DNA of 64,000 nucleotides from Bacteroidales bacterium (GTDB taxonomy: Bacteria > Bacteroidota > Bacteroidia > Bacteroidales > UBA4417). Position 1 is the stretch's first letter. Each line of letters begins with the position of its first letter. Shown piece after piece: positions 12,331 through 31,502 of this stretch. The notes below the pieces were generated by a model. The model saw only the letters and a program-made list of their open reading frames with translations, was not told the origin of the DNA and ran no database searches. The translations under genes and the position numbers were made by a program. The DNA is taken from NCBI GenBank assembly GCA_963665485.1, contig OY762227.1:1231293-1295292 (forward strand), in the 5' to 3' direction.

Positions 12331-13632
12331 ATGAAAGCCATTTATAAAATCATAATTATCAGCATGATTTGCCTGAATGTGCAATCGCTAAAAGCGCAAC
12401 AGCCACTGGTGCTTTCACTGGATAGTGCTGTTTATTATTCCATCGATCATAATAAGACGTTGATAAATTCGAAATATGCAATCCAGAAGTCAGCGCAAAA
12501 AATTAAGGAAGCCATAGCTGTTGGTTTACCACAGGCTAATGCCACCTTGGATTATAGTAATTTTTTGGGTGCTTCGGCCTCGATCCAATTAAATCCCGAG
12601 GCGCCGCCTGCTACAATTGAATTTAATCCTACCAGTAATGTAAAAGGTACTATCAGCCAGATGATATTTAATGGCAATTATTTTGTCGGCGTGCAACTTT
12701 CGAAACTTGCCAAAACCATTACAGAGCAAGGCTATCAGAAAGATGAGCTGAATGTTAAAGAACAGGCCATACAAGCATATTGCATGATCCTGGCAAGTGA
12801 AAGAATATCAGACATCATCAGGGAAAATAAGACCAATGCACTGCTGCTTTATGAAAAAACAAAGAATCTTGCCAATGCCGGTATTCTGGAACAAACGGAT
12901 GCAAAAAAACTATCTGTAATGGTGGCATCGGTCGACAATGCGTTAAAATCGTCGGAAAGACAGGTTGAGTTAGGGTATAACCTTTTGAGGCTGCAATTGG
13001 GCCTGGAGCCTGATCAGGAAATTAAACTTACTTCATCTCTCATGGATATTGCACAGGCATATGAGGCACAAACCGCATTGGCTGACACCTTTAATATTCA
13101 AAAAAATATTGATTTTCAAATGGTTGCAATGCAGGGTGAAATTGCACAAAAGACTATTGATCTCAGAAAGTCAAGTTACCTGCCTTCGGTTACGGCTTTT
13201 TATTCGCGTACCGAAAAATTGAAAAAACCTCTTTTTGATATGACACCCAAGAATGTTCTTGGATTCACGTTAACCGTTCCCATTCTTTCGGGTGGACAAC
13301 GGGTAGCGCAATTGGATCAGGCTAAAATTGATTACGACATCAACACCAACACCAAAGACCTGTTAACGCAGCAACTCACTTTGCAGGACAGGCAGATTAG
13401 GTATAACTACAATAACCTTCTGGAACAACTGGCCACCCAAAATGAAAACAGGGAAATTGCAAAAGAAGTACTGGATAAGATGAACCTGAAATATGAACAA
13501 GGTATCGTTTCGAGCCTCGAATTAACCAGTGCCAATACCGACTATCTGAATGCTGAAACAACATACACCAGCATCATGCTTCAAATACTGAATGCTGAAA
13601 TATCATTACGTAAAATTAACAGTAAACTCTAA
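12331..13632 (+). CDS. TolC-family outer membrane efflux protein
   Basis: The internal Met at 12331 gives a signal peptide (MKAIYKIIIISMICLNVQSLKAQQ). Two coiled-coil repeats typical of TolC/OEP. Sits upstream of the RND adaptor and pump. Confidence 0.85.
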   Translation: MKAIYKIIIISMICLNVQSLKAQQPLVLSLDSAVYYSIDHNKTLINSKYAIQKSAQKIKEAIAVGLPQANATLDYSNFLGASASIQLNPEAPPATIEFNPTSNVKGTISQMIFNGNYFVGVQLSKLAKTITEQGYQKDELNVKEQAIQAYCMILASERISDIIRENKTNALLLYEKTKNLANAGILEQTDAKKLSVMVASVDNALKSSERQVELGYNLLRLQLGLEPDQEIKLTSSLMDIAQAYEAQTALADTFNIQKNIDFQMVAMQGEIAQKTIDLRKSSYLPSVTAFYSRTEKLKKPLFDMTPKNVLGFTLTVPILSGGQRVAQLDQAKIDYDINTNTKDLLTQQLTLQDRQIRYNYNNLLEQLATQNENREIAKEVLDKMNLKYEQGIVSSLELTSANTDYLNAETTYTSIMLQILNAEISLRKINSKL

Positions 13633-19460: not shown

Positions 19461-19468
19461 TATCTTTG
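19461..19468 (+). promoter_or_regulatory. Bacteroidota -7 box (TATCTTTG) upstream of the integrase
   Basis: Matches TAnnTTTG, 82 nt upstream of the integrase ATG. Confidence 0.4.
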
Positions 19469-19507
19469 TACCTGAATGAAGCATTTATTGTACCTGTTTT
19501 TGTACCT
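19466..19507 (+). repeat. Three direct TTGTACCTG repeats (candidate integrase arm-type sites)
   Basis: Copies start at 19466, 19488 and 19499, spaced 22 and 11 bp apart. The TTGTAC core recurs three times near the right end (57081-57124). Confidence 0.5.
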
Positions 19508-19549
19508 GTTTCATTTCTGTATTCCTTTATAATCAATAATTTCAGAATT

Positions 19550-20812
19550 ATGGCAACAGTAAAAGTACTACTTAAAACGGAGAAAAAAAAGAAAAATGAC
19601 CAAATTCCCATTTATCTCCGAATCATCAGTAAAGGAAAGGCTAGATTTATTGCCTTGAAAAAAACCGTTCTTGAAAAAGATTGGGATTTCGACAGCTCAA
19701 AAGTTAAAAAGTCTAATCCCCTCTATCGGCAGTTGAATACATATATTGCTGAAAAAATTGCGGATGCAGAAGCAGCCAGCCTCGAACTTGAGATAGGTTC
19801 CAAGGTTGTTACTCCTCGCCAGATTAAAAATAAGGTAATGGGCACTGAACTTCCCAGCTTTAAAAAATATATAGAGAAGAGACTCAAAGCGGAAGAGGAC
19901 ACCATCAAAGTTGGCACCTACCGTAAGAATGCAGCTATTGTTGCTAAGTTTAAAAAATTCCTGGGCACAAAAGATTTGCTTTTTGAGGATATGAATGTCG
20001 CTTGGATTAAGGATTATGAATTCTATCTTAGTACTGATAGGCATAATTCAAAAAACACCATTGGAACCAATCTGAAAATCTTAAAGAAGTATTTTAATGA
20101 AGCTATAAAGGAAGGGCTGGTAAGCTATGATTCTAATCCATTTCTGAACTATAAGATAAAATCTGAGCCATCTGAAAGACAATATTTAACAGAGGATGAA
20201 CTGATAACTATTGAGAATTTAGAGCTTGTACCAGGCTCCAATCTGTATCACCATAGGAATATGTTTGTATTCGCAACATATTCAGGCGGTTTAAGAATCT
20301 CTGATGTTCTACAGTTAAAATGGGAAAATTTTGATGGCATCAAGATAAATATCGTTGTGCAGAAGACCGGCGAAATGCATTCCATAAAGTTACCAGAAAA
20401 AGCTCTGAATATTATTAATAGTTATAAAAGTGATGAATCCAACCCTACTGACTTTGTTTTCCCGGTATTGGATAATGAAATCGATTATTCGAAAGATCCC
20501 AAAATCCTTCACAATGCTTTAAGTGTTGGTACTTCCCTTTGTAACAATTCCCTGGAGAAAATAGCCGAAAAGGCTAAGCTGACCAAGAATCTCCATAATC
20601 ATATTGCCCGTCATACCTTTGCTACAATGGCTTTGCGTAAGGGCGTTCGTATCGAATATGTCAGCAAACTCCTTTCACATAATTCCTTAAAAACCACTCA
20701 GATTTACGCTAAAATCATAAATGTTGAGTTGGATGATGCAATGGATGTTTTTAATAAACCAATTCATGTTCCCGAAGAAGTGAAAGAAAAACTTGAACCG
20801 TCTGCAAACTAA
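19550..20812 (+). CDS. Tyrosine site-specific integrase (Bacteroidota phage-integrase family)
   Basis: ATG at 19550 gives MATVKVLLKTEKKKKNDQIPIYLRI (Arm-binding N-domain). Catalytic region contains GGLRISD, HIARHTFAT and LLSHNSLKTTQIYAKI (R..HxxR..H..Y). Confidence 0.9.
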   Translation: MATVKVLLKTEKKKKNDQIPIYLRIISKGKARFIALKKTVLEKDWDFDSSKVKKSNPLYRQLNTYIAEKIADAEAASLELEIGSKVVTPRQIKNKVMGTELPSFKKYIEKRLKAEEDTIKVGTYRKNAAIVAKFKKFLGTKDLLFEDMNVAWIKDYEFYLSTDRHNSKNTIGTNLKILKKYFNEAIKEGLVSYDSNPFLNYKIKSEPSERQYLTEDELITIENLELVPGSNLYHHRNMFVFATYSGGLRISDVLQLKWENFDGIKINIVVQKTGEMHSIKLPEKALNIINSYKSDESNPTDFVFPVLDNEIDYSKDPKILHNALSVGTSLCNNSLEKIAEKAKLTKNLHNHIARHTFATMALRKGVRIEYVSKLLSHNSLKTTQIYAKIINVELDDAMDVFNKPIHVPEEVKEKLEPSAN

Positions 20813-21037
20813 ATCCTTGCTTCAGGTTCATTCTTAAGCAAATTATATGCTTCTCCAAAGCCTCCTTTATCTCGATATGGGATGTTTTTAAGGTAAATAT
20901 GCTGCTTTCGTACAAGATCTAATTGCTACTATCTTGCAGGAAGAAATCCTCATAGTAAAGCAAATTTATAGGGCCATGTATTCGTATTATATGTGTTAGC
21001 TCCCTAATGGCTGTGAAGGGTTGGCATTTATCAGTTT

Positions 21038-23545
21038 TTATTTTAGGTTTTTAATAAATGGTCTAAATGCATTCTCGAATTTTGGTAAATACTCAATGAA
21101 AAACTGATTCATTCTTTCCCAATCGCTGTCAATAAATAGATTTACGTCTTGCAAATCAAATTTAACTCTGCTCATTTTATTCTCAGCCAATTCTTCCCAA
21201 TGTAACGGGTTTCCAAAAGATTGTTCAACTGCATCTTTGCTCTTCATTAATTTTTTAAAATACACTTTGTTTTTTTCCTTGCTTGAAGTAGAAATACCTA
21301 GCTCAATGCGGATATGTGTTTTTGTAATTATCAAAGTATAAGCTAAACCACCAATTCCCGCTCCTGTGCTCAACCAATGGTCTTTTGACGGACTAACATT
21401 GTCAAACAGATTTGTATGATTTAATAGCGGTAAAAGTTGCTGCCAATACTTTTTTCTTACACTAAAGCGATTGGGTTCTGTTTTACTTTCACCGTTTGAT
21501 GAATACTTTATCAATAGTTCATCTTCCAATTCAAATAAAACAAGTATTTTTTTTAGAATAACAAATTTGGAGTTACTGTCAATGTTTGATTCAATATACC
21601 AACCATTCACAACTTCTTGGGCTGCTCTGAAATCGGTTGTCTCTCTGGTTATTTTTAAAATGTCTTGATTGCTGATAAGTAATTGTGTGTTTTTTTCATA
21701 AAGTTTCCGAATGACATAAAAATACATTTGGGCAACAGTATCTTCTTCAATTTTAGTGTTTTCAAAAATGAAGTATTCCAATTTTTTATGTGTCGGACTT
21801 TCAGTGTCAAAAATATTTTGTTCTTCCGATTCATCAGCATCAGAAATTTCAATGTCGGGTATCTCCCAAATTTTCAAAAATCGCTCATAAATTATATTCA
21901 ACCTTTCTTCATACTCAGCAACAGTCCATTTAACTGATGATTTTAAATAAGAATTAAGCCACAATCTGCTGAAGTTATAACCTTGCTCGTTTCCGTCAAC
22001 ATTCATTTCCTTTTTCGCATTAAAGGATTTGTTGCCTAACGCCCCATTATTTCCTGATAGTGTTAAGTTTGCAATGGTGTTTAGGTATTTCTCTTTGAAC
22101 AGGAAGTAATCTTCCGGTGAAATATCAGTGTTCCAATCATCACTCGGATTTTTTGGGAAAATATGTTCAATGGTTATGTGCTCATTATTGGTGTTTACAA
22201 ATTCCCGATTGTTGTAGTTTTCCAACATCTCAAACAAATAGTTTCTGTTTTTGGGTTGGGTATTGTATAGGTCTTTGTCTCTAAGGGCTGTTTTTAAATC
22301 TTCGTTGCTCGGAAACTTAGCACTGCCTTTTTTCTTCAATAATGCTTTGGCAATGCTGTCATAATATTCTTCCGTGTCAACTTCCGAGTATAATGACATA
22401 AAGATTTTATTCAAGGCATTAGTTGGAAGTCCTACAATAAACCTTCTCCAGGCATAGCTTTGAACCAATTTTAAAACTTTCAACAAATGTACTTTGCTCA
22501 ACAATCCGTTTTCGGCATCTTCAAATACCTGTATCAAAAAAGGATAGGCAACATTAATCTCTAAACGATTGATATATTCAAGCTCTTTCTGTATGCTTAA
22601 ATCCGCAACTGTTGAAGGGTTCACAAACTTTTTGTAATGAATGGAAAGTGATTTTATATTTTCCAGTTCCTGATGATAGGCTTCATCTTTTTTGTTTGCA
22701 TATATGCTTTTAAACTCTGCGTAAACTTTATTCTTATTTGGAATTTTCTTGTTTCTAAGCGTTAAATAATCCCGAATAAATTCAGAAACCAAAGAGCCTT
22801 GCTTCACATAATCTCTAGCATTTTCTTCAATGGGGTTCCAAATGGTTTCAAAAATTCGGTTTTGGTCTCTGGGTGGTAAGTCCATCAAAATGTAATTCCG
22901 AATCAGGTCAGATTGCGACAAGTCTAACCCTGTTGAATTTAAACTTTCAAAAATCCGTTGCGGGTCGTCTTTATCTCGTTCTAATGAAATTTCAACAAAT
23001 ATCAGGCGGTTTAAGCCCCTAAGTATCGTTTCGAAATTTTCTTCGGTTATAATGCTACTGAAATAGTTGTAGTTTTCTGTTACGTTAGAGTAGTGCAATG
23101 AACTATTATCTGTTCCCAACAAAATGGCTTTAAATGCTACAGAGTTGGTATCTGTTTGTTTCAGTTTTAATTTGCTTGATTCGTTTTTTACATATTGATT
23201 GGTAAGAAACATATTGTAAAGCCGTTCAGCATCTTGTGCGTTTCCGCTATCCTTGGCAAATCTATACAAGGCTACATATAGAATGTTGATGGTTGTAAGA
23301 CGTTGTTGTCCGTCTATGATTACCAACTCTTTTACTTCGCTTGTGCTGTATGTGCCTTCGTGAATAAAAACAATGCTTCCTATAAAATGTGTTCCCCTGT
23401 TCTCAGTTTCTACCGAAATTATATCGTTCAGAAGTTCTTTACATTCGGTATTTGTCCAATCGTAATTGCGTTGGTAAACAGGTATTACAAACTGCACATT
23501 AGGAGCTTGTAAAAAGTTATTTATTTGTAGTTCGTTGGCTTTCAT
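21038..23545 (-). CDS. DUF262 (ParB-like NTPase) + DUF1524 (His-Me/HNH-like nuclease) protein, GmrSD/SspE-like, with an extra C-terminal domain
   Basis: 835 aa. Contains IIDGQQRLTT (DUF262 DGQQR motif) and ITIEHIFPKNP (DUF1524 motif). The C-terminal ~150 aa resembles DUF4268. The start codon abuts the stop of the upstream helicase gene. Confidence 0.8.
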   Translation of the reverse strand: MKANELQINNFLQAPNVQFVIPVYQRNYDWTNTECKELLNDIISVETENRGTHFIGSIVFIHEGTYSTSEVKELVIIDGQQRLTTINILYVALYRFAKDSGNAQDAERLYNMFLTNQYVKNESSKLKLKQTDTNSVAFKAILLGTDNSSLHYSNVTENYNYFSSIITEENFETILRGLNRLIFVEISLERDKDDPQRIFESLNSTGLDLSQSDLIRNYILMDLPPRDQNRIFETIWNPIEENARDYVKQGSLVSEFIRDYLTLRNKKIPNKNKVYAEFKSIYANKKDEAYHQELENIKSLSIHYKKFVNPSTVADLSIQKELEYINRLEINVAYPFLIQVFEDAENGLLSKVHLLKVLKLVQSYAWRRFIVGLPTNALNKIFMSLYSEVDTEEYYDSIAKALLKKKGSAKFPSNEDLKTALRDKDLYNTQPKNRNYLFEMLENYNNREFVNTNNEHITIEHIFPKNPSDDWNTDISPEDYFLFKEKYLNTIANLTLSGNNGALGNKSFNAKKEMNVDGNEQGYNFSRLWLNSYLKSSVKWTVAEYEERLNIIYERFLKIWEIPDIEISDADESEEQNIFDTESPTHKKLEYFIFENTKIEEDTVAQMYFYVIRKLYEKNTQLLISNQDILKITRETTDFRAAQEVVNGWYIESNIDSNSKFVILKKILVLFELEDELLIKYSSNGESKTEPNRFSVRKKYWQQLLPLLNHTNLFDNVSPSKDHWLSTGAGIGGLAYTLIITKTHIRIELGISTSSKEKNKVYFKKLMKSKDAVEQSFGNPLHWEELAENKMSRVKFDLQDVNLFIDSDWERMNQFFIEYLPKFENAFRPFIKNLK

Positions 23546-26092
23546 TTATTGTGGTTCATTTACAAAACTTGATTCATAATCTTTTCTGCTTAACACAGTA
23601 TCAAACAATCCAATGTCTTCTCCATCGTGTCTGTTGATTCCTATATATTCTAAACTCGCATCTTCGTAGCGTTTGAATTTGTAAACAGCATCATTCATTA
23701 AGGCTGAATTGAACACGCCCATACTTACCAATAATTCAAAGTCTTTAACGGAAAGCCCTGTTACCTTTTTAAAAAGACCAGGTTCCAATTGCGTGATAAC
23801 ATCTTTCAGACTTCTTTCTCGGTAGTCGGTCAGATACATGAACACTGGAATGCGAGTAGCAAATTTGATTAGCTTGTCTTGTATTTGCTTTCTAAGGCTT
23901 TTGTATTCTTTCTCCTGGTCGGTTAATTCTTGTTTTTGCTTTTTAGTAAGCTCTTTGTCGTTGGCTTCCTTCTTTGCTTTTTTAACGGCATCGGATTTAT
24001 TGATAATTGTTTCAATGTCCTGATTCAAGTTTCTAAAGCCTTCAATGTTCATTAAAGCCTTCATTGCCTCTTCGTTTGCCATCAAACGGGCAAGTGTGTT
24101 GTTGTCAACATTCACGAGTAAAGCACTTTCCCAACGTCTAGCCAGGAGCGTTGCTGTTGTGCCACTCATTGCCATATCTAGAATTCCTGCGGCATCTACT
24201 TGTTTCATCGAACTGCCGTCATAAGCCAATACAGGCAGAAAGTTGATAAATTCGGCAACTTTTGCTTCGGGATTTGATTCGTTTACATTCAATCGACAAC
24301 TGTAATCGGCAATTTGGCGTAATGCCCGGTCGGGAGCAAAGTCAAAAACATAACATTCTTCTTTTAGTATTTCTTCTTTATTGGGTGATTTGCTATCGGG
24401 GTTTTTAATGACCCAAGGCGTTTGCACCCGGAATGCTGCTTGAAAATAGGTTTCGGGACTGGAAGAATTACGCAACATAAAAATGCCTGTCCAGGGTTTC
24501 ACTGAAACGCCTGTTGTAAGTTTGCCACACGATAACGTTATGGTTTTTGACTCCAGAGGATTGTCGGTCATTGCATCTAAAACGGGTGGTAATGCTTCAA
24601 TGCCAATTCCTGCATGTGTACCTGCGGCAACCACTACGGTATAATCGTGGTAAAAATTATTTTGGCGTTGCTTTAGTAAACTTGCCATTGCGTTACAAGA
24701 TGCAACGGTTGGCAAAAACCAAAACGTATGATTTAATACTTTGAGTAATGGGGCGTGCGCAAACGGCAGTGGTGGCTTTTTTGCACCCATTTTTAAATTA
24801 TCAACCGTGGTTTCACTGAACGAACCCCGTATTAAATCCAACCATTTTTGTACTTCATCTTCGTATTTGAAGCGGGCAGTTCTGCCTTCACCTTCGCTTT
24901 TAAAGAATACATTTAAATCAAAACCATCAAACTCGCCCTGCATTGCAATCTGGCGAATGGAATCAGGTAATTGATAAGTAAGCATTACCATTCGCGGCAA
25001 GGCTGCATATGGATTGTTATCGCCAGTCCAGTTCTCTTTGGCTCTTTGTTCATCTGAATAAGTCCAATTAAAAATTTGTTCTTCGATAAATTCGCCTGAA
25101 CTGATTGCCCGAAACGGAGTACCTGATAAATACAAAAAATGATTTGTGCTTATCGGAATGATTTCCTCTAAATGTTCAACCTTATCCTCTTCGGCAAATC
25201 CTTCCTCTTCAATTTTTTTAAATTCTTCAATCTCCTTTTCGGCTTCTAAATCCTTACCGAATAGATCTTTGGCATTTTCTCTCCAGGCTCCATAGTGATA
25301 CTCGTCAAAAATAATACAATCCCAAACGGTGGCATGTACCCATTCATTTTTTGCTTTAATACCACCGGTGTTGGTATTCTTCCCTAAAAAATCCTGAAAC
25401 GAACCAAAACAAACCAATGGTTTTTTAGTATCTATATCTTCGCTCGATAATTCATCTGCGTGTTTAGAAATGAATTGCCAACCTTTAAAATCTACGTGTG
25501 ATAATAAATCTTCTTTCCAGGCATCTTCAACGGCTGGTTTAAAAGTAAGCACCAATACTTTTTTCCAACCCATTTTTTTTGCCAACTGATAACTGGCAAA
25601 TGTTTTTCCGAAACGCATTTTGGCGTTCCATAAAAAGTGCGGTGTTTTGTCTTTGTTCTCTTTTTTAAAACTCTTAAAATAAGCGATTGATTTATTTACG
25701 GCTTCTTCCTGTTCGGGACGCATACCAAACGTGAGCACACGATTTTCTTCTGTTTTCTCACCTGTTTTTATTTGATGAATGGCTCTTCGTAAATCATTTA
25801 AGGTGCATTTGTACCATTCTCCGCTTGCATTCACTACTTTCCATTCTCTTAAAAGACGGTGTACATCATGGTCGGTAAACGAACTGCCGTCACGCTTCAT
25901 AGCCGATTCTTCAAACACAATTTTGTGTTGAATGGCAGCCGTACCTACCTGTTCTTTTATGCGTGTTTGTGCATCCCGGTCAGTGTAGCCGATTTTGAGC
26001 AAACCCTTATGTGTGGCAACTTCAACCAATTCATAAGCATAAATAGTAGGATTGGTATACGGTCTAGGAGGAAAGAATTCTTTTTTACTCAT
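23546..26092 (-). CDS. T5orf172/GIY-YIG-like domain fused to an SF2 (type III Res-like) helicase
   Basis: 848 aa. N-terminus: IYAYEL...GLLKIGYTDRDAQTRIKE...VHRLL...GEWYKC. Helicase motifs: MRFGKT (I), IIFDEYHYG (II), LSGTPF (III), QAAFRVQT (VI). Overlaps the MTase stop by 8 nt. Confidence 0.75.
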   Translation of the reverse strand: MSKKEFFPPRPYTNPTIYAYELVEVATHKGLLKIGYTDRDAQTRIKEQVGTAAIQHKIVFEESAMKRDGSSFTDHDVHRLLREWKVVNASGEWYKCTLNDLRRAIHQIKTGEKTEENRVLTFGMRPEQEEAVNKSIAYFKSFKKENKDKTPHFLWNAKMRFGKTFASYQLAKKMGWKKVLVLTFKPAVEDAWKEDLLSHVDFKGWQFISKHADELSSEDIDTKKPLVCFGSFQDFLGKNTNTGGIKAKNEWVHATVWDCIIFDEYHYGAWRENAKDLFGKDLEAEKEIEEFKKIEEEGFAEEDKVEHLEEIIPISTNHFLYLSGTPFRAISSGEFIEEQIFNWTYSDEQRAKENWTGDNNPYAALPRMVMLTYQLPDSIRQIAMQGEFDGFDLNVFFKSEGEGRTARFKYEDEVQKWLDLIRGSFSETTVDNLKMGAKKPPLPFAHAPLLKVLNHTFWFLPTVASCNAMASLLKQRQNNFYHDYTVVVAAGTHAGIGIEALPPVLDAMTDNPLESKTITLSCGKLTTGVSVKPWTGIFMLRNSSSPETYFQAAFRVQTPWVIKNPDSKSPNKEEILKEECYVFDFAPDRALRQIADYSCRLNVNESNPEAKVAEFINFLPVLAYDGSSMKQVDAAGILDMAMSGTTATLLARRWESALLVNVDNNTLARLMANEEAMKALMNIEGFRNLNQDIETIINKSDAVKKAKKEANDKELTKKQKQELTDQEKEYKSLRKQIQDKLIKFATRIPVFMYLTDYRERSLKDVITQLEPGLFKKVTGLSVKDFELLVSMGVFNSALMNDAVYKFKRYEDASLEYIGINRHDGEDIGLFDTVLSRKDYESSFVNEPQ

Positions 26093-27647
26093 CTACTTCA
26101 GCATTTTGCGATAAATCCTTTGGGCGAATCATGCTTTCTATGAAAGCGATTTCATCATTTGTTAAACTATACTTTTCATAAAGTTTTTCGTCTGTCCATG
26201 GCTCAGAGAAATTTTGGAGTGGAACAAACTCGTAAACTCCTCTTCTAGCTTCTTGAGTGATTTTTTTTAAAGAAACCATGAAGTGGAAAAATTTTGTCTC
26301 AATATATGAGAGAACATTTTCTAAAGTCTGGATCGTATTAAAAGGGCCAATCACAAGGTAGGTTTCACTAGTGCATGAGGGGTTTTCTGGCACAAAAGGT
26401 CTGATAACATCTGTTTTACTATCACCGGTTCCAATAGCTTTCGCTACAAATAACTTATGTTTACTTAACCAATCTGTATTTTTTTGTACATATTTCTTGT
26501 CAATATAACCTACGCCATCTTTTCTCCATCCATTATAGTAAAATTTTACACTTCCTTCGAAATAACTGAGTTTAAATTGAGGTTTAACTCGTTTCATACT
26601 ACCTTCAATCCTAACATCAAAACCAAAAGGATCATTTGCACTAATTAAGTCAGAAAAACTTTTCTCTTTCTTAGTTTTAACCTTTTTCAATATTGGAACT
26701 GCTTCATTGTATCGAATAAATGTTGAAGCCCCTTCTTCAAGCAAAGCACGTTCGGTTTCTGATGTGATTATATCCCCTGAATGAGTACATACTTTACAAA
26801 GACCTTTATTATCCCTATCCCATAAAAAATAGTTTACACCTCCTTTTATTTCAACACCCGGAAAACAATCTCTTGCATCTTGAAAATCATGTATTATTCT
26901 CAATCTTTTATCTTTTAGCATTTTTTCCCTAAACTCAGTAAGCTCACCAACCCTACCACCAGCAAACCATCTGGCTGGAATAATCATAGATAAATATTTA
27001 GGTTTTAGCGCTATTGCTTGCTCAACAAATTTATGGTAGATAGGTTTTGCACTAGCTCCATGTCCACCATCACTCAGTTGATAAGGTGGATTTCCAACAA
27101 TTACATCAAATTTCATATTGAATGTTTTCTTAGGCTTGTCTGTGTGTATAAAATTGTAAGCGTAGGTTTCTAAGGCATCTTCACGGTCATAAACTTCCTG
27201 GCTTGCTCCACAATAGGTACATTTTCCGCTTTGCCAGGTGTGTTTCATCCGTTTATATCGGATAAGTCCTTGCTCGTCATTAAAGGATTCGCAAATAGAG
27301 TATTTACCATTGGCAGTCTTGGAGCAATATACGCTTCTACGTGAGAGCAATGCGGTTAAATCTGTAATGGCAATACCGTAAAGCTGCTGGCTGAAAATAT
27401 GGTTAATGCGTTCCTGTTTGTCAGGTATTTGGGTTTCCAAACCTTTCATCAGTCGCTTTGCTATTTCTCGCAAAAACACACCACTTTTACTTACTGGGTC
27501 CAAAAATTTGGCTTTGGGATTGCTCCAAAGTTCAGCAGGAAGCAAATTTAAAATATCATTAGCTAAACCTGGTGGCGTAAAAACTTCGTCGTTGCTTAAA
27601 TTGGCAAGGCAAGAGAGTACGTCGGGGTTATAGTTCGTTTGCATCAT
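26085..27647 (-). CDS. Gamma-class N6-adenine DNA methyltransferase (Eco57I-like) with an inserted Cys4 zinc ribbon and a C-terminal recognition region
   Basis: EVFTPPGLANDIL, FLDPVSKSGVFLREI (motif I variant) and DVIVGNPPYQ (motif IV) are present. Cys cluster YCSK..SICES...CTYCG. Start is ambiguous: TTG at 27656, or ATG at 27647 or 27644. Confidence 0.8.
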   Translation of the reverse strand: MMQTNYNPDVLSCLANLSNDEVFTPPGLANDILNLLPAELWSNPKAKFLDPVSKSGVFLREIAKRLMKGLETQIPDKQERINHIFSQQLYGIAITDLTALLSRRSVYCSKTANGKYSICESFNDEQGLIRYKRMKHTWQSGKCTYCGASQEVYDREDALETYAYNFIHTDKPKKTFNMKFDVIVGNPPYQLSDGGHGASAKPIYHKFVEQAIALKPKYLSMIIPARWFAGGRVGELTEFREKMLKDKRLRIIHDFQDARDCFPGVEIKGGVNYFLWDRDNKGLCKVCTHSGDIITSETERALLEEGASTFIRYNEAVPILKKVKTKKEKSFSDLISANDPFGFDVRIEGSMKRVKPQFKLSYFEGSVKFYYNGWRKDGVGYIDKKYVQKNTDWLSKHKLFVAKAIGTGDSKTDVIRPFVPENPSCTSETYLVIGPFNTIQTLENVLSYIETKFFHFMVSLKKITQEARRGVYEFVPLQNFSEPWTDEKLYEKYSLTNDEIAFIESMIRPKDLSQNAEVDE

Positions 27648-28305
27648 CTTCGCCAAGTTTTAAAAAATGAATAAGCGGAAAATCCTTTACCGGTTCGTCA
27701 ATGGCACCAGCATTGCCTTCGTCATTAAATATTGAAAACTGGTGAGTTTTCTCTACCAAAAATTTAAACATATAATCTCTGCGTTTCAGCATAGAGCCGT
27801 TTACAGCACTCCATTCCGAAAATATAATTGGTTGCTTCGTAATCGGATTAGTAAAGTCCAAAGCATCACCCCAAAGTATGTTTCTGGTTAATAAAAAACC
27901 AACTGAACGAATACATTCACTCTTCACTCGTTTGAATGTTTTTGAATACCATTCCGTATAAATTCCAAGCAAACGTTTTCGGCATTCCTGTGCGTTATCT
28001 TCTAAAATATCCACACCATAAATACTTGAAACTGCAATAACTGAATATCTTTCCCATTCCACTTGGCTTTTGCTGTATCGGCTGTCAACTACAGCTAATT
28101 TTCTTCTCAATACTTCGGCTAAAAAATTTCCGTTACCACAAGCAGGTTCTAAGAAACGAGAGTCAATTCTTTCTGTTTCTTGTTTAACCAAGTCAAGCAT
28201 TGCATTTACTTCTCGTTGGTTTGTAAAAACTTCACCGTGGTCAGCAACCCGCTTTTTTGATTTTACTTGGTTATCTGTCTTTATATCTTCTGTCAATTCA
28301 GTCAC
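27628..28305 (-). CDS. Methyltransferase-like SAM-binding protein lacking the catalytic NPPY motif
   Basis: 225 aa with a GTG start. HGEVFTNQREVNAML and FLEPACGNGNFL (motif I), YGVDI and ILWGDAL are present, but no (N/D)PP(Y/F) follows. Overlaps the downstream MTase start. Confidence 0.6.
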   Translation of the reverse strand: MTELTEDIKTDNQVKSKKRVADHGEVFTNQREVNAMLDLVKQETERIDSRFLEPACGNGNFLAEVLRRKLAVVDSRYSKSQVEWERYSVIAVSSIYGVDILEDNAQECRKRLLGIYTEWYSKTFKRVKSECIRSVGFLLTRNILWGDALDFTNPITKQPIIFSEWSAVNGSMLKRRDYMFKFLVEKTHQFSIFNDEGNAGAIDEPVKDFPLIHFLKLGEDDANEL

Positions 28306-28412
28306 TTATTATTTTATTATTTTAAGTCGTCTAAGTTGCTTTTTTATGTTTGGTTGTCTGTATGTGCGTTCGTAAAAAATGGTTCTTTTGGTTTATTAAC
28401 GTTGGGCTGCGT

Positions 28413-28826
28413 TTAGGCAAAAACCAAATGTGCCATTTGTGCGGTTGGTTGTCTTTTTACAATGAGGTATAACATAAAAGTAGCTCCCTTCATAAACTTG
28501 CTGAATGCAGCACTGCGGTTGCCTACATTACGGAGAAAATCAAATACACCATCATTCTTGGTAAACATCTTATGCATTACCTTCGGGTCCATATTCTTGA
28601 ACCAGCTCCAGCGCAATTCGTATTCTGCTTCGGTATAAATAGGCTCTTCTATGGGCTTTTTCAAAAGGTTAGCCTTTTGTTCCCTGTGCGTTTGCAGTTC
28701 ATCCAGCCTGCGGATGAAAAGCAAAAAGGTCATTTGTTCAATAACAGTTAAGGGGTTTGAAAGTCCCCCTGTCCAAAACGCTTCCCAGACTTTATCTATT
28801 TGTGATTTGAGTTCTCCGGTGATCAT
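28413..28826 (-). pseudogene. hsdM: Truncated hsdM (type I R-M methylase, N-terminal domain only)
   Basis: MITGELKSQIDKVWEAFWTGGLSNPLTVIEQMTFLLFIRRLDE is a textbook HsdM N-terminal domain. The ORF ends after 137 aa with an unrelated tail and has no catalytic domain. Confidence 0.7.
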
Positions 28827-29237
28827 GCATACTTTTTAATGAGATTGGTGCAAATATCGTTTAATTATATGGAATGTTTATTAGCCATAGCTGAATATTA
28901 GGAGAGTACCAAAGTACGAAAAATATATACTGAGTTTATATATTTGTTGGTTTTGGGCAATCTGATTATGAATGCACCTTGAAAAATAGCTGATCATTGA
29001 TTCACTTCAAATCATAATCTAAAATTTAAATCTTTTGAAGTACATGGTTAAAATCAGTATCTACCACCCTACACATGTTTTCTGGTTTACATAAAACATT
29101 GAATAGTAGCATATAAAGTGTCTTTTTATCAAAAAAATAACCCCTGCAACCGATCCTGCGTTTGTTTCAGGACTTTACGATTGCAGGGGCGATTGCAGGC
29201 CATTATTCTACCGAATAAATAACTATAAATCAGATGT

Positions 29238-30770
29238 TTAATTCATGTTTGGGTCGTAAGAAGGGTTGCTTATCGTGAAATAAGTAGTTTTCCTTCCACC
29301 CTTTACTGGTATTTCAAAGCGGCTTGTACCAATGTTCCTTTCTTCCATTTCTAATAGTAATTCCTGAACCTGCATTGCCGTATTACATCGGGCGACATTA
29401 TTGGATAATAACATTCTGGCTGTTACTCTTCCCCCATGTCTGTTTATCCATGCCACGGCAAGTACAATTTTCTGATCCATCGGTGAATTGTTCATCTCCT
29501 TATAAGTTTTGTAAACATGCGACTTAAAGTAGTTTATCACCAGGTGTGCCTTGTCCACGGTTTCGGGCTCAATTACAAAAGAATCAATCTTGTTAGATGC
29601 ATTTTCAGCAAGTTGCAAAATTAGAATTATGCGGGCCATATAAGCCTGTAGTTTAGACCAAACCCCCTTCAGATAATAAGGCAGTTCATAAGAATTCATT
29701 TCAGCATCATGTACCTTATTCCAATCTCTCCATAGCATCCTGCTTGCATAATTGAATTTCATGCTGACTGGATTTTCTTCATTTAGATGTCCTTTTGCTG
29801 GCATCAGGCAGTAAAGTGATTGCACTATTGCAAGGTATCCCTGCATTACTTCATCACTCAATTCATCCTCGGTATACTGCAGTTTTGTAATTTCAGGATA
29901 CGACAATAATATCCGGTCGAAAAAGCCATTATTCTTCATTCCGGATAAGGTCAAAAGTAAATCTGGTTGGATACAACCTGTTACATTTACAATTGGGTTA
30001 TTTATAAATAGGGGCAGAGGTTGTGATGCCCGGTTTATAATACATTGACTACCACTCCAAAAGGAAAGCCAATTCTCAAGATCTGCTCCCTGGCCTCCAC
30101 GGTATGAATTCATTGATTTTACCCAGGCAGCTAACTCATCTTGCTCGAATAGAATTCCGCGTTTATAATTCGCCAGTAATTTGCTAATGGCTTCCATTGT
30201 CGCATTACTTGTCTTTATTTGCCTTAGTTTGGGCTGTTCACCTTCATTCGCAGCATTTCTGTCTTGCCCTCTTCTTTCATCCCCTGTTGCACTACTTTGG
30301 TCATTATACCTTTGCATTTCCACGCTGTATGCTGCTAAAAACATATCTTGTATTTGCGCAATAGGTTTGGTAGCAATATTTAGGGCGGGTGATTTTTTAC
30401 TTCCAGGTTGAGCAATAATTGCACTGTATATCCGCGGACCTTCTACCCATCCTTTTTTGATTTGTATATTCCTGCTAATTCCTATCGCTGTAGCAAGAAC
30501 GGCTAATACTGGTACTGCTATAAAATCAGCCGGGCAACCAACTGATTTTGATGCTTCATGCACTAAATTCGCGATAGGAACAGGGAATACCTGCACTGGG
30601 AAAAGTATAGTGTGTTCAGTGTATTGTGTAAGATTAGGTCTTTGTAACTTGTAATATTCCTTCTCAGGTTCTTTTATTTCAGCAATTCCAACATTAGTTT
30701 TAACTAATCTTGTATCACCCTTTGTGTTAATTGCTGTGCAGTCCTCATGCTGTTCAACTCCATCTGTCAT
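29238..30770 (-). CDS. DUF3987-family (YfjI/P4-alpha-like) primase-helicase-type replication protein
   Basis: FPVQVFPVPIANLVHEASKSVGCPADFIAVPVLAVLATAIG...AQPGSKKSPA matches the DUF3987 signature. ATG at 30770; an alternative start lies at 30839. Confidence 0.7.
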   Translation of the reverse strand: MTDGVEQHEDCTAINTKGDTRLVKTNVGIAEIKEPEKEYYKLQRPNLTQYTEHTILFPVQVFPVPIANLVHEASKSVGCPADFIAVPVLAVLATAIGISRNIQIKKGWVEGPRIYSAIIAQPGSKKSPALNIATKPIAQIQDMFLAAYSVEMQRYNDQSSATGDERRGQDRNAANEGEQPKLRQIKTSNATMEAISKLLANYKRGILFEQDELAAWVKSMNSYRGGQGADLENWLSFWSGSQCIINRASQPLPLFINNPIVNVTGCIQPDLLLTLSGMKNNGFFDRILLSYPEITKLQYTEDELSDEVMQGYLAIVQSLYCLMPAKGHLNEENPVSMKFNYASRMLWRDWNKVHDAEMNSYELPYYLKGVWSKLQAYMARIILILQLAENASNKIDSFVIEPETVDKAHLVINYFKSHVYKTYKEMNNSPMDQKIVLAVAWINRHGGRVTARMLLSNNVARCNTAMQVQELLLEMEERNIGTSRFEIPVKGGRKTTYFTISNPSYDPNMN

Positions 30771-30862
30771 TATTTTAAAATTTAAATAGTTCTGCCGGTA
30801 AGGCAGTATGCATAATATTGCCTCTCTCAGAGGCTTCAAAATTGTTTACGCCATATTTGGCG

Positions 30863-31219
30863 TTAATATAATACTTCGTATTTACCATCGGTATCATCAA
30901 TGTACGTGTATGTCCTATATTCTAGGCATAGTTTTCTTAAAAACTCAATCCCAGTCTCTTTTACGCGAATAGGTGCAAAAAGCATTTTCCTGAATGGGTG
31001 GTATCCGGTACTTAGTCCCTGTTCAAAATTGATTCCATCATTAAATTCCGGATATAGGTTCCGATCGCAATCCACGATATTACTATCTCTCATATATCCC
31101 AATATGATATTCCTCCCTGCAAAAGGTTCATTTATAATTTTTGCTGCCTCACTAAGGCTGTATGTCAATTCCCCAGCATCATTTAATCGTCCACCTCTGT
31201 AAATCTTCTCATTACTCAT
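30863..31219 (-). CDS. Small DNA-binding protein, KilAC/antirepressor-like (tentative)
   Basis: 118 aa. LSEAAKIINEPFAGRNIILGYMRDSNIV...YPEF loosely resembles KilAC domains. Sits between the xis-like and primase-like genes. Confidence 0.3.
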   Translation of the reverse strand: MSNEKIYRGGRLNDAGELTYSLSEAAKIINEPFAGRNIILGYMRDSNIVDCDRNLYPEFNDGINFEQGLSTGYHPFRKMLFAPIRVKETGIEFLRKLCLEYRTYTYIDDTDGKYEVLY

Positions 31220-31220
31220 C

Positions 31221-31502
31221 TTAGTTCCTCCTATATTTGGTAGGCTTTACATGATGCTTTTCCAAAAAAATGTCAACATCTTGCTGACTGTAGTATATTT
31301 TACTCGCAAACTGTGAGAATGAGATCACTCCTTGATCTCTCCACGTTGCTAGCGTGCGCCTTGAAACATGAAGTAATGCCATTAAATCAGCATTATCGTA
31401 AACAGTGTTCCGTTTTTTTTCGCTGGCGGTAGCAGCGTTAAGCAAACCCTCAATCCTGGCAAGCCCTGCTTTTAACTCCATCATTTCTATGTTAATATCC
31501 AT
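31221..31502 (-). CDS. Helix-turn-helix (excisionase/MerR-like) DNA-binding protein
   Basis: 93 aa. LMALLHVSRRTLATWRDQGVISFSQFASKIYYSQQDVDIFLE is the typical Bacteroidota mobile-element HTH/Xis-like motif. Confidence 0.65.
   Translation of the reverse strand: MDINIEMMELKAGLARIEGLLNAATASEKKRNTVYDNADLMALLHVSRRTLATWRDQGVISFSQFASKIYYSQQDVDIFLEKHHVKPTKYRRN

What the first reader, a model, noticed from the sequence alone, without database searches (positions are those of the whole stretch)
21038..28305. Tightly coupled four-gene operon linking methyltransferase, GIY-YIG-like helicase and a GmrSD/SspE-like nuclease
All four genes are on the minus strand and overlap or abut. The MTase-like and MTase genes overlap. 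The MTase and helicase genes overlap by 8 nt. The helicase stop is immediately followed by the DUF262 start. The helicase protein (T5orf172/GIY-YIG-like N-domain plus SF2 motor) together with the separate gamma-class NPPY methylase looks like a split version of a type ISP/type III-like enzyme, with a different nuclease domain from the usual PD-(D/E)xK. The last gene is a DUF262-DUF1524 protein, a class normally acting as a stand-alone modification-dependent (type IV) enzyme. In Ssp systems this class acts as a modification-sensing effector (SspE). Translational coupling of such a protein to a methylase module suggests a composite system in which self-methylation is read by two different effectors. 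I cannot place this architecture in a named system by eye.
Basis: partly seen in the sequence, partly recalled or inferred. Interest (0 to 1): 0.75.

Follow-up and report, generated by a model that had tools for sequence, protein, structure and literature searches.

The report
Split restriction operon with GmrSD rider
The four overlapping genes are real, but they are best read as a conserved three-gene restriction-modification-like module followed by a separate modification-dependent nuclease of a kind that also sits behind many unrelated restriction systems.

Summary
Four minus-strand genes at 21038-28305 overlap or abut exactly as described, and all the named motifs are present.

- **The first three genes are one conserved unit.** They are a truncated methylase-like protein (p1), an Eco57I-type NPPY methylase with a hypervariable target-recognition half (p2), and a T5orf172/GIY-YIG-like nuclease fused to an SF2 helicase (p3). 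In 53 of 53 related genome loci with enough upstream sequence, p1 and p2 precede p3.
- **Fused forms exist.** In Firmicutes plasmids and marine contigs, p3 and p2 form one 1300-1400 aa chain, again preceded by a p1-like gene. "Split Type ISP-like enzyme with a different nuclease" is therefore supported. This class was flagged in 2009 and 2012, but I found no biochemical characterisation.
- **The fourth gene is not part of that unit.** The GmrSD-DUF4268 gene (p4) follows p3 in only 6 of 64 loci. Its close relatives sit directly behind unrelated Type IIG, MmeI-type, fused helicase-methylase and Type I genes.

p4 is most likely an autonomous Type IV enzyme co-transcribed with the restriction operon, a published pattern (BrxU, HEC-06). 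In passing, I found a structured ~100-nt repeat that brackets whole defence operons.

The parts
28341..28473 (-). Conserved structured leader repeat upstream of p1. It marks the 5' boundary of the transferred cassette.
   Evidence: DNA homology to related loci stops at 28473. nhmmer hit at 28469-28341, E 2e-11. The hairpin is supported by compensatory changes.
27628..28305 (-). p1: stand-alone truncated gamma-methylase-like protein. It keeps motifs X, I, II and III. It has FSEW where NPPY would be, so it is probably catalytically dead.
   Evidence: 458 clusters at E<=1e-30, nearly all 200-290 aa; model pLDDT 86.7; weak matches to CamA, BsaXI, BrxX and LlaGI methylase domains.
26967..27656 (-). 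p2, catalytic half (residues 1-230): gamma-class N6-adenine methylase of the Eco57I family with NPPY. It carries a four-Cys insertion.
   Evidence: PF07669, E 2e-36. (conserved at 80-95% or more across 64 homologues).
26085..26966 (-). p2, C-terminal half (residues 231-523, plus stop codon): hypervariable, presumed target-recognition domain.
   Evidence: little conservation. (34-47% identity between most pairs of loci whose other genes are 85-98% identical).
23546..26092 (-). p3: N-terminal T5orf172/GIY-YIG-like domain (residues 17-108, nt 25769-26044), an SF2 helicase-like motor, and a C-terminal helical region.
   Evidence: One search shows I17, Y18, R44, E92, GK163, DE264 and H266 invariant across split and fused forms.
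21038..23545 (-). p4: GmrSD-family protein (DUF262 with DGQQR, DUF1524 with EHIFP) plus a C-terminal DUF4268 (nt 21056-21460).
   Evidence: (PADLOC Orf5 3e-127, HEC-06 2e-55, PDC-S11 on the C-terminus).
21007..21037 (-). Truncated copy (first ~30 nt) of the same structured repeat that follows p4 in other loci. It marks the 3' boundary of the cassette.
28413..28826 (-). Remnant of a Type I hsdM gene. Only the HsdM_N part survives. The reading frame runs into the leader repeat and stops.
19466..20812 (+). Tyrosine integrase of the integrative element that carries the cassette (context).
29238..31502 (-). DUF3987 protein, a small ORF and an HTH_17 excisionase-like gene: backbone of the integrative element (context).

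Best explanation
The locus holds two defences transcribed as one operon, carried as cargo on a Bacteroidota integrative element.

(1) p1-p2-p3 form a three-component, ATP-dependent restriction-modification-like system.
- p2 recognises an asymmetric site through its variable C-terminal half and protects host DNA by N6-adenine methylation.
- p3 is recruited to unmethylated sites, translocates with its SF2 motor and cuts with its N-terminal GIY-YIG-like T5orf172 domain.
- p1 is a truncated, probably inactive methylase paralogue. It would act as an obligatory structural or regulatory partner of the methylase.
- The domain logic is that of Type ISP enzymes, but split, permuted, with a different nuclease and an extra subunit.

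(2) p4 is an autonomous modification-dependent (Type IV) GmrSD nuclease with a DUF4268 reader-like domain.
- It rides at the 3' end of the operon.
- It would cover phages whose hypermodified DNA escapes the first system.

Shown: gene anatomy, motifs, conservation, co-occurrence and modularity. Inferred: every biochemical step.
For: The trio is one unit.
- In 53 of 53 helicase-anchored genome loci with at least 3.5 kb upstream, p1 and p2 lie upstream in the same order.
- p1 and p3 are mostly 70-95% identical across orders of Bacteroidota, whereas the C-terminal half of p2 is hypervariable. That is the pattern expected of a specificity domain under diversifying exchange.
- Catalytic motifs are intact and invariant.

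Fused forms exist.
- p3 residues 15-848 and p2 residues 1-511 align collinearly to residues 15-952 and 932-1416 of one Pediococcus plasmid protein.
- Similar fusions occur in Lysinibacillus and in marine contigs.
- Each fusion is preceded by a p1-like gene.
- PADLOC's Type IIG model PDLC03626 covers p3, then p2.

p4 is independent.
- It lies downstream of p3 in 6 of 64 loci. Other loci carry NACHT, OLD-like, SIR2, TIR, other DUF262 genes or housekeeping genes there.
- Of 53 p4-anchored loci that could be classified, 8 have the trio, 8 a fused helicase-methylase, 9 a PDLC03612 Type IIG, 3 an MmeI-type enzyme and 2 a PDLC03609 enzyme. Others have Type I genes nearby.
- Partner types are interleaved in the p4 tree.
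- The closest p4 relative (95%) follows a different enzyme.

Literature.
- GmrSD-like genes are often embedded in Hma, BREX and Type I systems, in the same orientation, and HEC-06 and BrxU defend on their own (10.1101/2024.01.29.577857; PMC12707154; 10.1101/2025.02.28.640651).
- The GmrSD+DUF4268 architecture and the link to restriction genes were already described (PMC4619093).
Against: - No experiment bears on this locus.
- The nearest studied architecture, DnmA-YeeB-YeeC, gave no phage protection in B. subtilis (PMC9973331).
- Nuclease activity of a T5orf172 domain in this context is unproven.
- No solved structure is detectably related to p3 by sequence, even with a profile. The Type ISP analogy therefore rests on domain order only.
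- The p3-p4 linkage is tighter than ordinary island adjacency. There is no intergenic gap. No structured repeat lies between them, although such repeats bracket the whole operon.
- p3 and p4 divergences track each other among trio+p4 loci.
- More than half of the classifiable p4 loci carry a methylase-bearing enzyme directly upstream. Some functional dependence is therefore not excluded.
Confidence: 0.65

Rival explanations
1. One composite four-gene system. Methylation by p2 is read by two effectors, and p4 needs the partner's mark, either as a licence or as a self signal.
For: - There is no gap between p3 and p4.
- p4 lies inside the same repeat-bounded unit as its partner.
- The p4 family is strongly enriched directly behind enzymes that carry N6-adenine methylases.
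- p3 and p4 co-diverge.
- SspE shows that a DUF262 protein can depend on a host modification.
Against: - 58 of 64 trio loci lack p4.
- p4 at 91-95% identity accompanies partners of unrelated families, and p2 specificity halves only 35-47% identical. It cannot be tuned to one motif or one partner protein.
- Relatives work alone.
- p4 matches SspE models only over the first ~100 residues.
Confidence: 0.1
2. p4 is a functionally coupled back-up rather than an independent enzyme. It would be held in check by the restriction complex and released when a phage anti-restriction protein inhibits that complex, as PrrC is with EcoPrrI.
For: - Tight co-transcription with many different restriction enzymes.
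- A precedent exists for guard genes embedded in restriction loci (PMC12707154).
Against: - The partners are structurally unrelated (trio, Type IIG, MmeI-type, Type I). A specific physical interaction with all of them is unlikely.
- p4 has the full NTPase and nuclease motifs of free-standing GmrSD enzymes.
Confidence: 0.1
3. The trio is not a restriction system. It would be an orphan or epigenetic methylase with relic or non-defence partners, as proposed for B. subtilis DnmA-YeeB-YeeC.
For: The B. subtilis cluster gave no protection and showed no site avoidance in phages (PMC9973331). No biochemical data exist for this family.
Against: - Strong purifying selection acts on all three proteins across thousands of sequences.
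- The nuclease and ATPase motifs are invariant.
- The specificity domain is shuffled.
- The trio lies in defence islands and on mobile elements next to AbiE, TmtA, TIR, SIR2 and NACHT genes.
- According to PMC9973331, the Vibrio homologues of DnmA-YeeB do protect.
Confidence: 0.1

Closest known systems
Type ISP restriction-modification enzymes (LlaGI, LlaBIII)
   Same: The same set of activities is predicted: nuclease, SF2 helicase-like motor, gamma-class N6-adenine methylase and a C-terminal target-recognition domain. The fused relatives have the same N-to-C order.
   Different: - Here the enzyme is split into two genes in permuted order.
- The nuclease is T5orf172/GIY-YIG-like, not Mrr/PD-(D/E)xK.
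- A third, dead-methylase-like protein (p1) is always present.
- There is no detectable sequence similarity to the LlaGI or LlaBIII chains in the PDB.
DnmA(YeeA)-YeeB-YeeC clusters (MmeI-like methylase + helicase + GIY-YIG/T5orf172 protein; PMC2731913, PMC9973331)
   Same: A methylase-specificity subunit lacking a nuclease is encoded with an SF2 helicase and a T5orf172/GIY-YIG module. The 2009 paper proposed a translocating restriction system with one-strand modification.
   Different: - Here T5orf172 is fused to the helicase N-terminus rather than being a separate protein.
- The methylase is Eco57I-family (523 aa). It has only a sub-threshold MmeI_Mtase match and none of the other MmeI domains.
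- The extra p1 gene is present.
GmrSD-like Type IV enzymes embedded in other defence systems (BrxU in BREX, HEC-05 and HEC-06 in Hma, RloF in Type I loci)
   Same: A DUF262-DUF1524 protein lies in the same orientation inside or at the end of a methylase-based system. In the tested cases it acts independently on modified DNA.
   Different: - The partner here is the split ISP-like trio.
- The gene is at the 3' end with no gap, not nested between system genes.
- This subfamily carries a C-terminal DUF4268.
- It matches a PADLOC model named Orf5 (3e-127) better than HEC-06 (2e-55).
Type III restriction-modification (Mod + Res)
   Same: Two-gene logic with the methylase gene first and a helicase-nuclease gene second, translationally coupled. 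An asymmetric-site, one-strand modification logic is plausible.
   Different: - Type III Mod is beta-class; here the methylase is gamma-class.
- The Type III Res nuclease is a C-terminal PD-(D/E)xK domain; here it is an N-terminal GIY-YIG-like domain.
- The p1 subunit has no Type III counterpart.

Membership tests
Type ISP restriction-modification | Single polypeptide carrying nuclease, helicase, methylase and target-recognition domains | tested here: not met
   The window has two genes (p2, p3) plus p1. Single-chain relatives exist elsewhere.
Type ISP restriction-modification | Mrr-family PD-(D/E)xK nuclease domain at the N-terminus | tested here: not met
   The N-terminus of p3 matches T5orf172 and MUG113 of the GIY-YIG superfamily. 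IY, R and E residues are invariant.
Type ISP restriction-modification | Sequence homology to LlaGI or LlaBIII | tested here: not met
   phmmer and profile searches of the PDB sequences, which include 4xqk and 5ffj, gave nothing at E<=1. Only the p1 model hits their methylase domain, and weakly.
Type ISP restriction-modification | ATP-driven translocation from an asymmetric site, with collision-dependent cleavage | not testable with these tools
   Needs biochemistry.
Type III restriction-modification | Beta-class Mod methylase and a Res subunit with a C-terminal PD-(D/E)xK nuclease | tested here: not met
   p2 has the gamma-class motif order X-I-IV with the variable half at the C-terminus. The nuclease-like domain of p3 is N-terminal and GIY-YIG-like.
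DnmA-YeeB-YeeC (MmeI-like methylase + helicase + T5orf172) | MmeI-family methylase lacking the nuclease domain | tested here: not met
   p2 hits Eco57I at 2e-36 but MmeI_Mtase only at 3e-4, below the cut-off. It has no MmeI_N, MmeI_hel, MmeI_TRD or MmeI_C match. Compare a true MmeI-type protein in L094.
DnmA-YeeB-YeeC (MmeI-like methylase + helicase + T5orf172) | Separate helicase and separate T5orf172 proteins downstream of the methylase | tested here: not met
   T5orf172 and the helicase are one protein here.
GmrSD family (Type IV) | N-terminal DUF262 with the DGQQR NTPase motif | tested here: met
   GmrSD_N E 6e-35, residues 8-219. IDGQQRL is in the translation. The closest PDB chains are a DUF262 protein and SspE, over the N-terminus only.
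GmrSD family (Type IV) | C-terminal DUF1524 His-Me finger nuclease with EHxxP | tested here: met
   GmrSD_C E 7e-18, residues 411-550. IEHIFP is in the translation.
GmrSD family (Type IV) | Cleavage dependent on modified bases, stimulated by NTP | not testable with these tools
   Known for GmrSD and BrxU and inferred for HEC-06. Untested for this subfamily.
SspE (Ssp phosphorothioate system effector) | Full-length similarity to SspE and linkage to sspABCD | tested here: not met
   SspE models match only residues 2-108 (E 1e-19 to 1e-20), against 3e-127 for another model. The annotated genes of the island are an integrase, an hsdM remnant, DUF3987 and HTH_17, with no ssp or dnd genes.
Hma system with embedded candidate (HEC-06) | Hma helicase, methylase and ATPase genes flanking the GmrSD-like gene | tested here: not met
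   No Hma model matched p1, p2 or p3 in PADLOC. p4 matches HEC-06 models at 2e-55, second to Orf5.
Integron attC site (considered for the structured repeat) | Inverted core sites R''/R' (RYYYAAC ... GTTRRRY) at the two ends of an imperfect hairpin | tested here: not met
   The repeat has a covarying hairpin, but its flanking GCCAACGC motifs are direct, not inverted. I saw no integron-type integrase and no arrays longer than three copies.

The most novel reading that the evidence does not exclude
p1-p2-p3 and their fused relatives would be a distinct, very widespread class of ATP-dependent restriction enzyme. It would use a GIY-YIG-type nuclease and need a catalytically dead methylase paralogue as a third subunit, for example as a pseudo-dimer partner or as a sensor of methylation or SAM. 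In addition, the structured ~100-nt repeats that bracket whole defence operons would be the sites at which such operons are exchanged as cassettes between Bacteroidota islands, with or without a GmrSD rider.
Probability: 0.25. Interest if true: 0.7.

Novelty: new variant of a known kind. Interest (0 to 1): 0.45.

Why it matters
- **An abundant family with no biochemistry found.** The trio belongs to a very abundant family. Restriction enzymologists flagged this class in 2009 and 2012, but I found no biochemical study of it.
- **An unexplained third subunit.** The always-present dead-methylase-like p1 has no counterpart in Type I, III or ISP models. It is the most testable new element.
- **A correction for annotation pipelines.** The GmrSD-DUF4268 gene should be scored as a separate Type IV module even when it is translationally coupled to a restriction operon.
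- **A possible exchange mechanism.** The repeat that brackets the operons may explain how such modules are swapped, and it gives a sequence handle for finding defence cassettes in Bacteroidota.

Tried and rejected
- NCBIfam gave no useful family for any of the four proteins.
- phmmer of p1, p2 and p3, and a helicase profile, found no relatives among PDB sequences.
- The first p1 structure, from 26 near-identical sequences, was unusable (pLDDT 49). A 54-sequence alignment with 50%-cluster representatives gave pLDDT 86.7. The fold matches were weak even so.
- The consensus promoter and terminator scan was at chance level. Rfam found nothing in 20700-29300.
- I looked for direct repeats that could be att sites of the island. 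Only short, chance-level pairs turned up.
- I considered that p1 might be the leftover of the disrupted hsdM gene. I rejected this because p1 is a conserved stand-alone family and DNA homology to the other cassettes includes it.
- I considered an attC-like role for the repeat. I rejected membership because the core motifs are direct, not inverted.
- I could not establish which published system PADLOC's model name "Orf5" refers to.
- The literature search for Vibrio data returned only the secondary citation.
Full report
**Observation.**
- p1 (27628-28305) overlaps p2 (26085-27656) by 29 nt from the first possible start. The overlap is 20 nt from ATG 27647, the start that public gene calls use.
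- p2 and p3 (23546-26092) share ATGAGTAA.
- The p3 stop TAA is followed at once by the ATG of p4 (21038-23545).
- Pfam gives Eco57I for p2 and T5orf172, MUG113 and ResIII for p3. It gives GmrSD_N, GmrSD_C and DUF4268 for p4, and a sub-threshold MmeI_Mtase match for p1.
- NPPY, GKT, DEYH, DGQQR and EHIFP are all present.
- The same junctions recur in homologous loci.

**Context.**
- The block is cargo of an integrative element. A tyrosine integrase lies at 19466-20812. A DUF3987 gene and an HTH_17 excisionase-like gene lie at 29238-31502. An RND efflux operon lies to the left.
- Just upstream of p1 is a 137-codon ORF whose first ~118 codons are a Type I HsdM N-terminus, after which it runs into foreign sequence.
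- DNA homology to related cassettes begins exactly there, at 28473, and ends 30 nt past the p4 stop, at about 21007. The whole block, leader included, appears to have replaced the rest of a Type I system.

**The trio is the conserved unit.**
- I fetched 80 genome loci around p3 homologues. In all 53 with at least 3.5 kb upstream, p1 and p2 lie upstream in the window's order.
- p1 and p3 are conserved almost residue by residue. In p2, residues 1-230 (methylase core) are conserved and residues 231-523 are hypervariable.
- Between most pairs of loci whose p3 proteins are 85-98% identical, the p2 C-terminal halves are 34-47% identical. This is the signature of a specificity domain being swapped.

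**Fused relatives.**
- On Firmicutes plasmids, p3 hits fall inside proteins annotated as Eco57I methylase domain proteins.
- In Pediococcus pRS5, one 1417-aa protein aligns with p3 over residues 15-952 and with p2 over residues 932-1416.
- Lysinibacillus and marine contigs have similar 1309-1329 aa fusions with ResIII and Eco57I domains and a T5orf172-like N-terminus.
- PADLOC's Type IIG model PDLC03626 likewise covers p3 and then p2.
- Each fusion is preceded by a gene related to p1. The Lysinibacillus one is 43% identical over the first 100 residues. The Pediococcus and marine ones are weaker.
- The functional set is therefore p1-family + (T5orf172-helicase) + (methylase-specificity), either split or fused.
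- Across both forms, I17, Y18, R44 and E92 (GIY-YIG-like) and GK163, DE264 and H266 (motor) are invariant.

**What p1 is.**
- It is a real gene. The 120 best matches listed are 216-243 aa, 85-92% identical and cover at least 93% of p1. There are 458 clusters at 50% identity with E<=1e-30, nearly all 200-290 aa.
- It keeps methylase motifs X (EVFT), I (EPACGNGNF), II (YGVD) and III (NILWGD). Where NPPY should be it has a conserved FSEW, and the rest of the catalytic domain is missing.
- A confident model (pLDDT 86.7) shows a partial Rossmann sheet plus a beta-hairpin.
- The model's best, though weak, matches are the methylase domains of CamA, BsaXI, BrxX, LlaGI and LlaBIII.
- I infer a non-catalytic partner of the methylase. 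Its actual role is unknown.

**p4 is a rider.**
- Downstream of p3, the 64 loci with at least 1 kb of sequence hold many different genes. A p4-type gene is present in 6, abutting p3 in 5.
- Elsewhere the same position holds other DUF262 proteins, or NACHT, OLD-like, HATPase, AAA_5, SIR2 and TIR genes, or even valyl-tRNA synthetase.
- I also fetched 79 metagenome loci around p4 homologues that are 66-95% identical over their full length. Fifty-three of them could be classified:

| Gene(s) directly upstream of p4 | Loci |
|---|---|
| Split trio | 8 |
| Fused helicase-methylase (with its p1-like gene where the sequence reaches) | 8 |
| PDLC03612 Type IIG enzyme (sometimes with a Bro-N/PDC-S13 gene between) | 9 |
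| Complete MmeI-type enzyme | 3 |
| PDLC03609 enzyme | 2 |
| PDC-S13 only, on short contigs | 5 |
| Type I hsdM, hsdS or hsdR neighbours | 4 |
| RhuM, HNH, kinase-AAA, a peptidase, or not examined | 14 |

- The closest p4 relative of all (95%) follows a PDLC03612 enzyme.
- In a p4 tree, the partner types are interleaved.
- p4 is 91-94% identical in five loci whose p2 specificity halves are 35-47% identical to the window's. It cannot be tuned to the mark its neighbour writes.

**Published precedents.**
- The GmrSD+DUF4268 architecture and the enrichment of restriction genes near GmrSD homologues are known (PMC4619093).
- GmrSD-like genes are frequently embedded, in the same orientation, in Hma, BREX and Type I systems, and HEC-06 defends on its own (10.1101/2024.01.29.577857).
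- BrxU acts independently of BREX (PMC12707154).
- A Bacteroides HEC-06 homologue and two DUF4268-bearing nucleases act against modified T-even phages (10.1101/2025.02.28.640651).

**Why the linkage is still more than adjacency.**
- A ~100-nt element lies upstream of p1 (28341-28473). The same element follows the last gene of these operons in other loci, always in the gene orientation.
- It never lies between p3 and p4, or between a Type IIG gene and p4.
- It forms an interrupted hairpin. On 42 copies, 86.7% of cells pair, against 23-41% when partners are slid. Eleven of 17 pairs show changes on both sides, and 0 of 500 shuffles reach the observed score. The copies fall into a few types, so independent events are fewer than the cell counts suggest.
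- Neighbouring repeat-bounded units also hold defence genes: AbiEii and TmtA, another Type IIG enzyme, and PDC-S08.
- In the window the 3' copy is cut after ~30 nt.
- p4 is therefore part of the same transcription or exchange unit as its partner. That fits co-regulation, and it does not exclude a looser functional tie.

**Comparison with known systems.**
- The trio works, on paper, like a Type ISP enzyme. It fails the membership tests: it is split, it has a GIY-YIG-type and not an Mrr-type nuclease, it has an extra subunit, and it shows no detectable sequence similarity to LlaGI or LlaBIII.
- It is not Type III, because the methylase is gamma-class and the nuclease is N-terminal.
- It is analogous to DnmA-YeeB-YeeC. 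That cluster was proposed in 2009 to be a translocating restriction system (PMC2731913). It was inactive in B. subtilis (PMC9973331).
- The wider class was named as unexplored in 2012 (PMC3553950).
- I could not query REBASE. The match to a REBASE-derived PADLOC model shows that the fused form is catalogued as putative Type IIG, not that it has been characterised.

**Verdict.** The "split ISP-like enzyme with a different nuclease" reading is supported and extended by p1. The "four-gene composite that reads its own methylation twice" reading is not supported. Interest is moderate: this is a new variant of known kinds, with two loose ends worth an experiment, namely p1 and the bracketing repeat.

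Noticed in passing
window 28341-28473 (minus strand) and truncated copy 21007-21037; e.g. L005:1019-1127 and 5892-6000, L088:2815-2920, 6003-6112 and 12514-12626: A ~100-nt structured repeat brackets whole defence operons in Bacteroidota islands, always in the gene orientation. It consists of an interrupted hairpin with compensatory changes plus three direct GCCAACGC-like motifs. The same leader precedes unrelated first genes (p1, a PDLC03612 Type IIG enzyme, a 5'-nucleotidase-like gene). Rfam has no match. Its function is unknown; it could be a terminator or insulator, an RNA element, or a cassette-exchange site.
   Followed up: partly
window 28413-28826 (minus strand): Truncated Type I hsdM gene. 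HsdM_N is intact for about 118 codons. The frame then runs into the cassette leader at 28473 and stops. The four-gene cassette therefore seems to have replaced a Type I system in this integrative element.
   Followed up: partly
window 27208-27326 (p2 residues 111-149): Four conserved cysteines (C111, C122, C146, C149) form a likely zinc-ribbon insertion between methylase motifs III and IV of p2. The segment is absent from the Pediococcus fused homologue.
   Followed up: no
L008:6911-7870, also L001, L032 and L047: In some loci a PF06189 5'-nucleotidase-family gene (PADLOC PDC-S08, E 2e-127) lies between the leader repeat and p1, inside the same repeat-bounded unit as the trio.
   Followed up: partly
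P0001-P0046 and loci such as L011, L018, L019 and L022: Many p3 homologues carry an extra ~60-residue C-terminal DUF4926 domain (about 907 aa in all). The window's p3 lacks it.
   Followed up: no
L102:8396-9265, L083:9162-9995, L112 and L113: A Bro-N domain protein (PADLOC PDC-S13, E 1e-125 or better) is often inserted directly upstream of p4. In two loci it lies directly upstream of p3. It is another small rider within these operons.
   Followed up: partly
window 28303-28305 (p1 start): p1 starts with GTG here and with GTG or TTG at the same position in homologues, although residues 12-35 are conserved. A non-ATG start seems to be a conserved feature and might keep p1 expression low.
   Followed up: no
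phage records PV036449.1 and MT835565.1 (H26, H27): Two gut metagenome records deposited as phage encode full-length p3 homologues (64% and 57% identity). The module is therefore sometimes carried on phage-like contigs.
   Followed up: no
loci carrying trio+p4 (window, L001, L004, L008, L036, L082, L089, L131): Pairwise identities of p3 and p4 track each other closely (for example 94/93, 85/87, 73/73), even though the p4 tree interleaves different partner types. One possible cause is modules recombining within the gene pools of related hosts, but this remains unexplained.
   Followed up: partly
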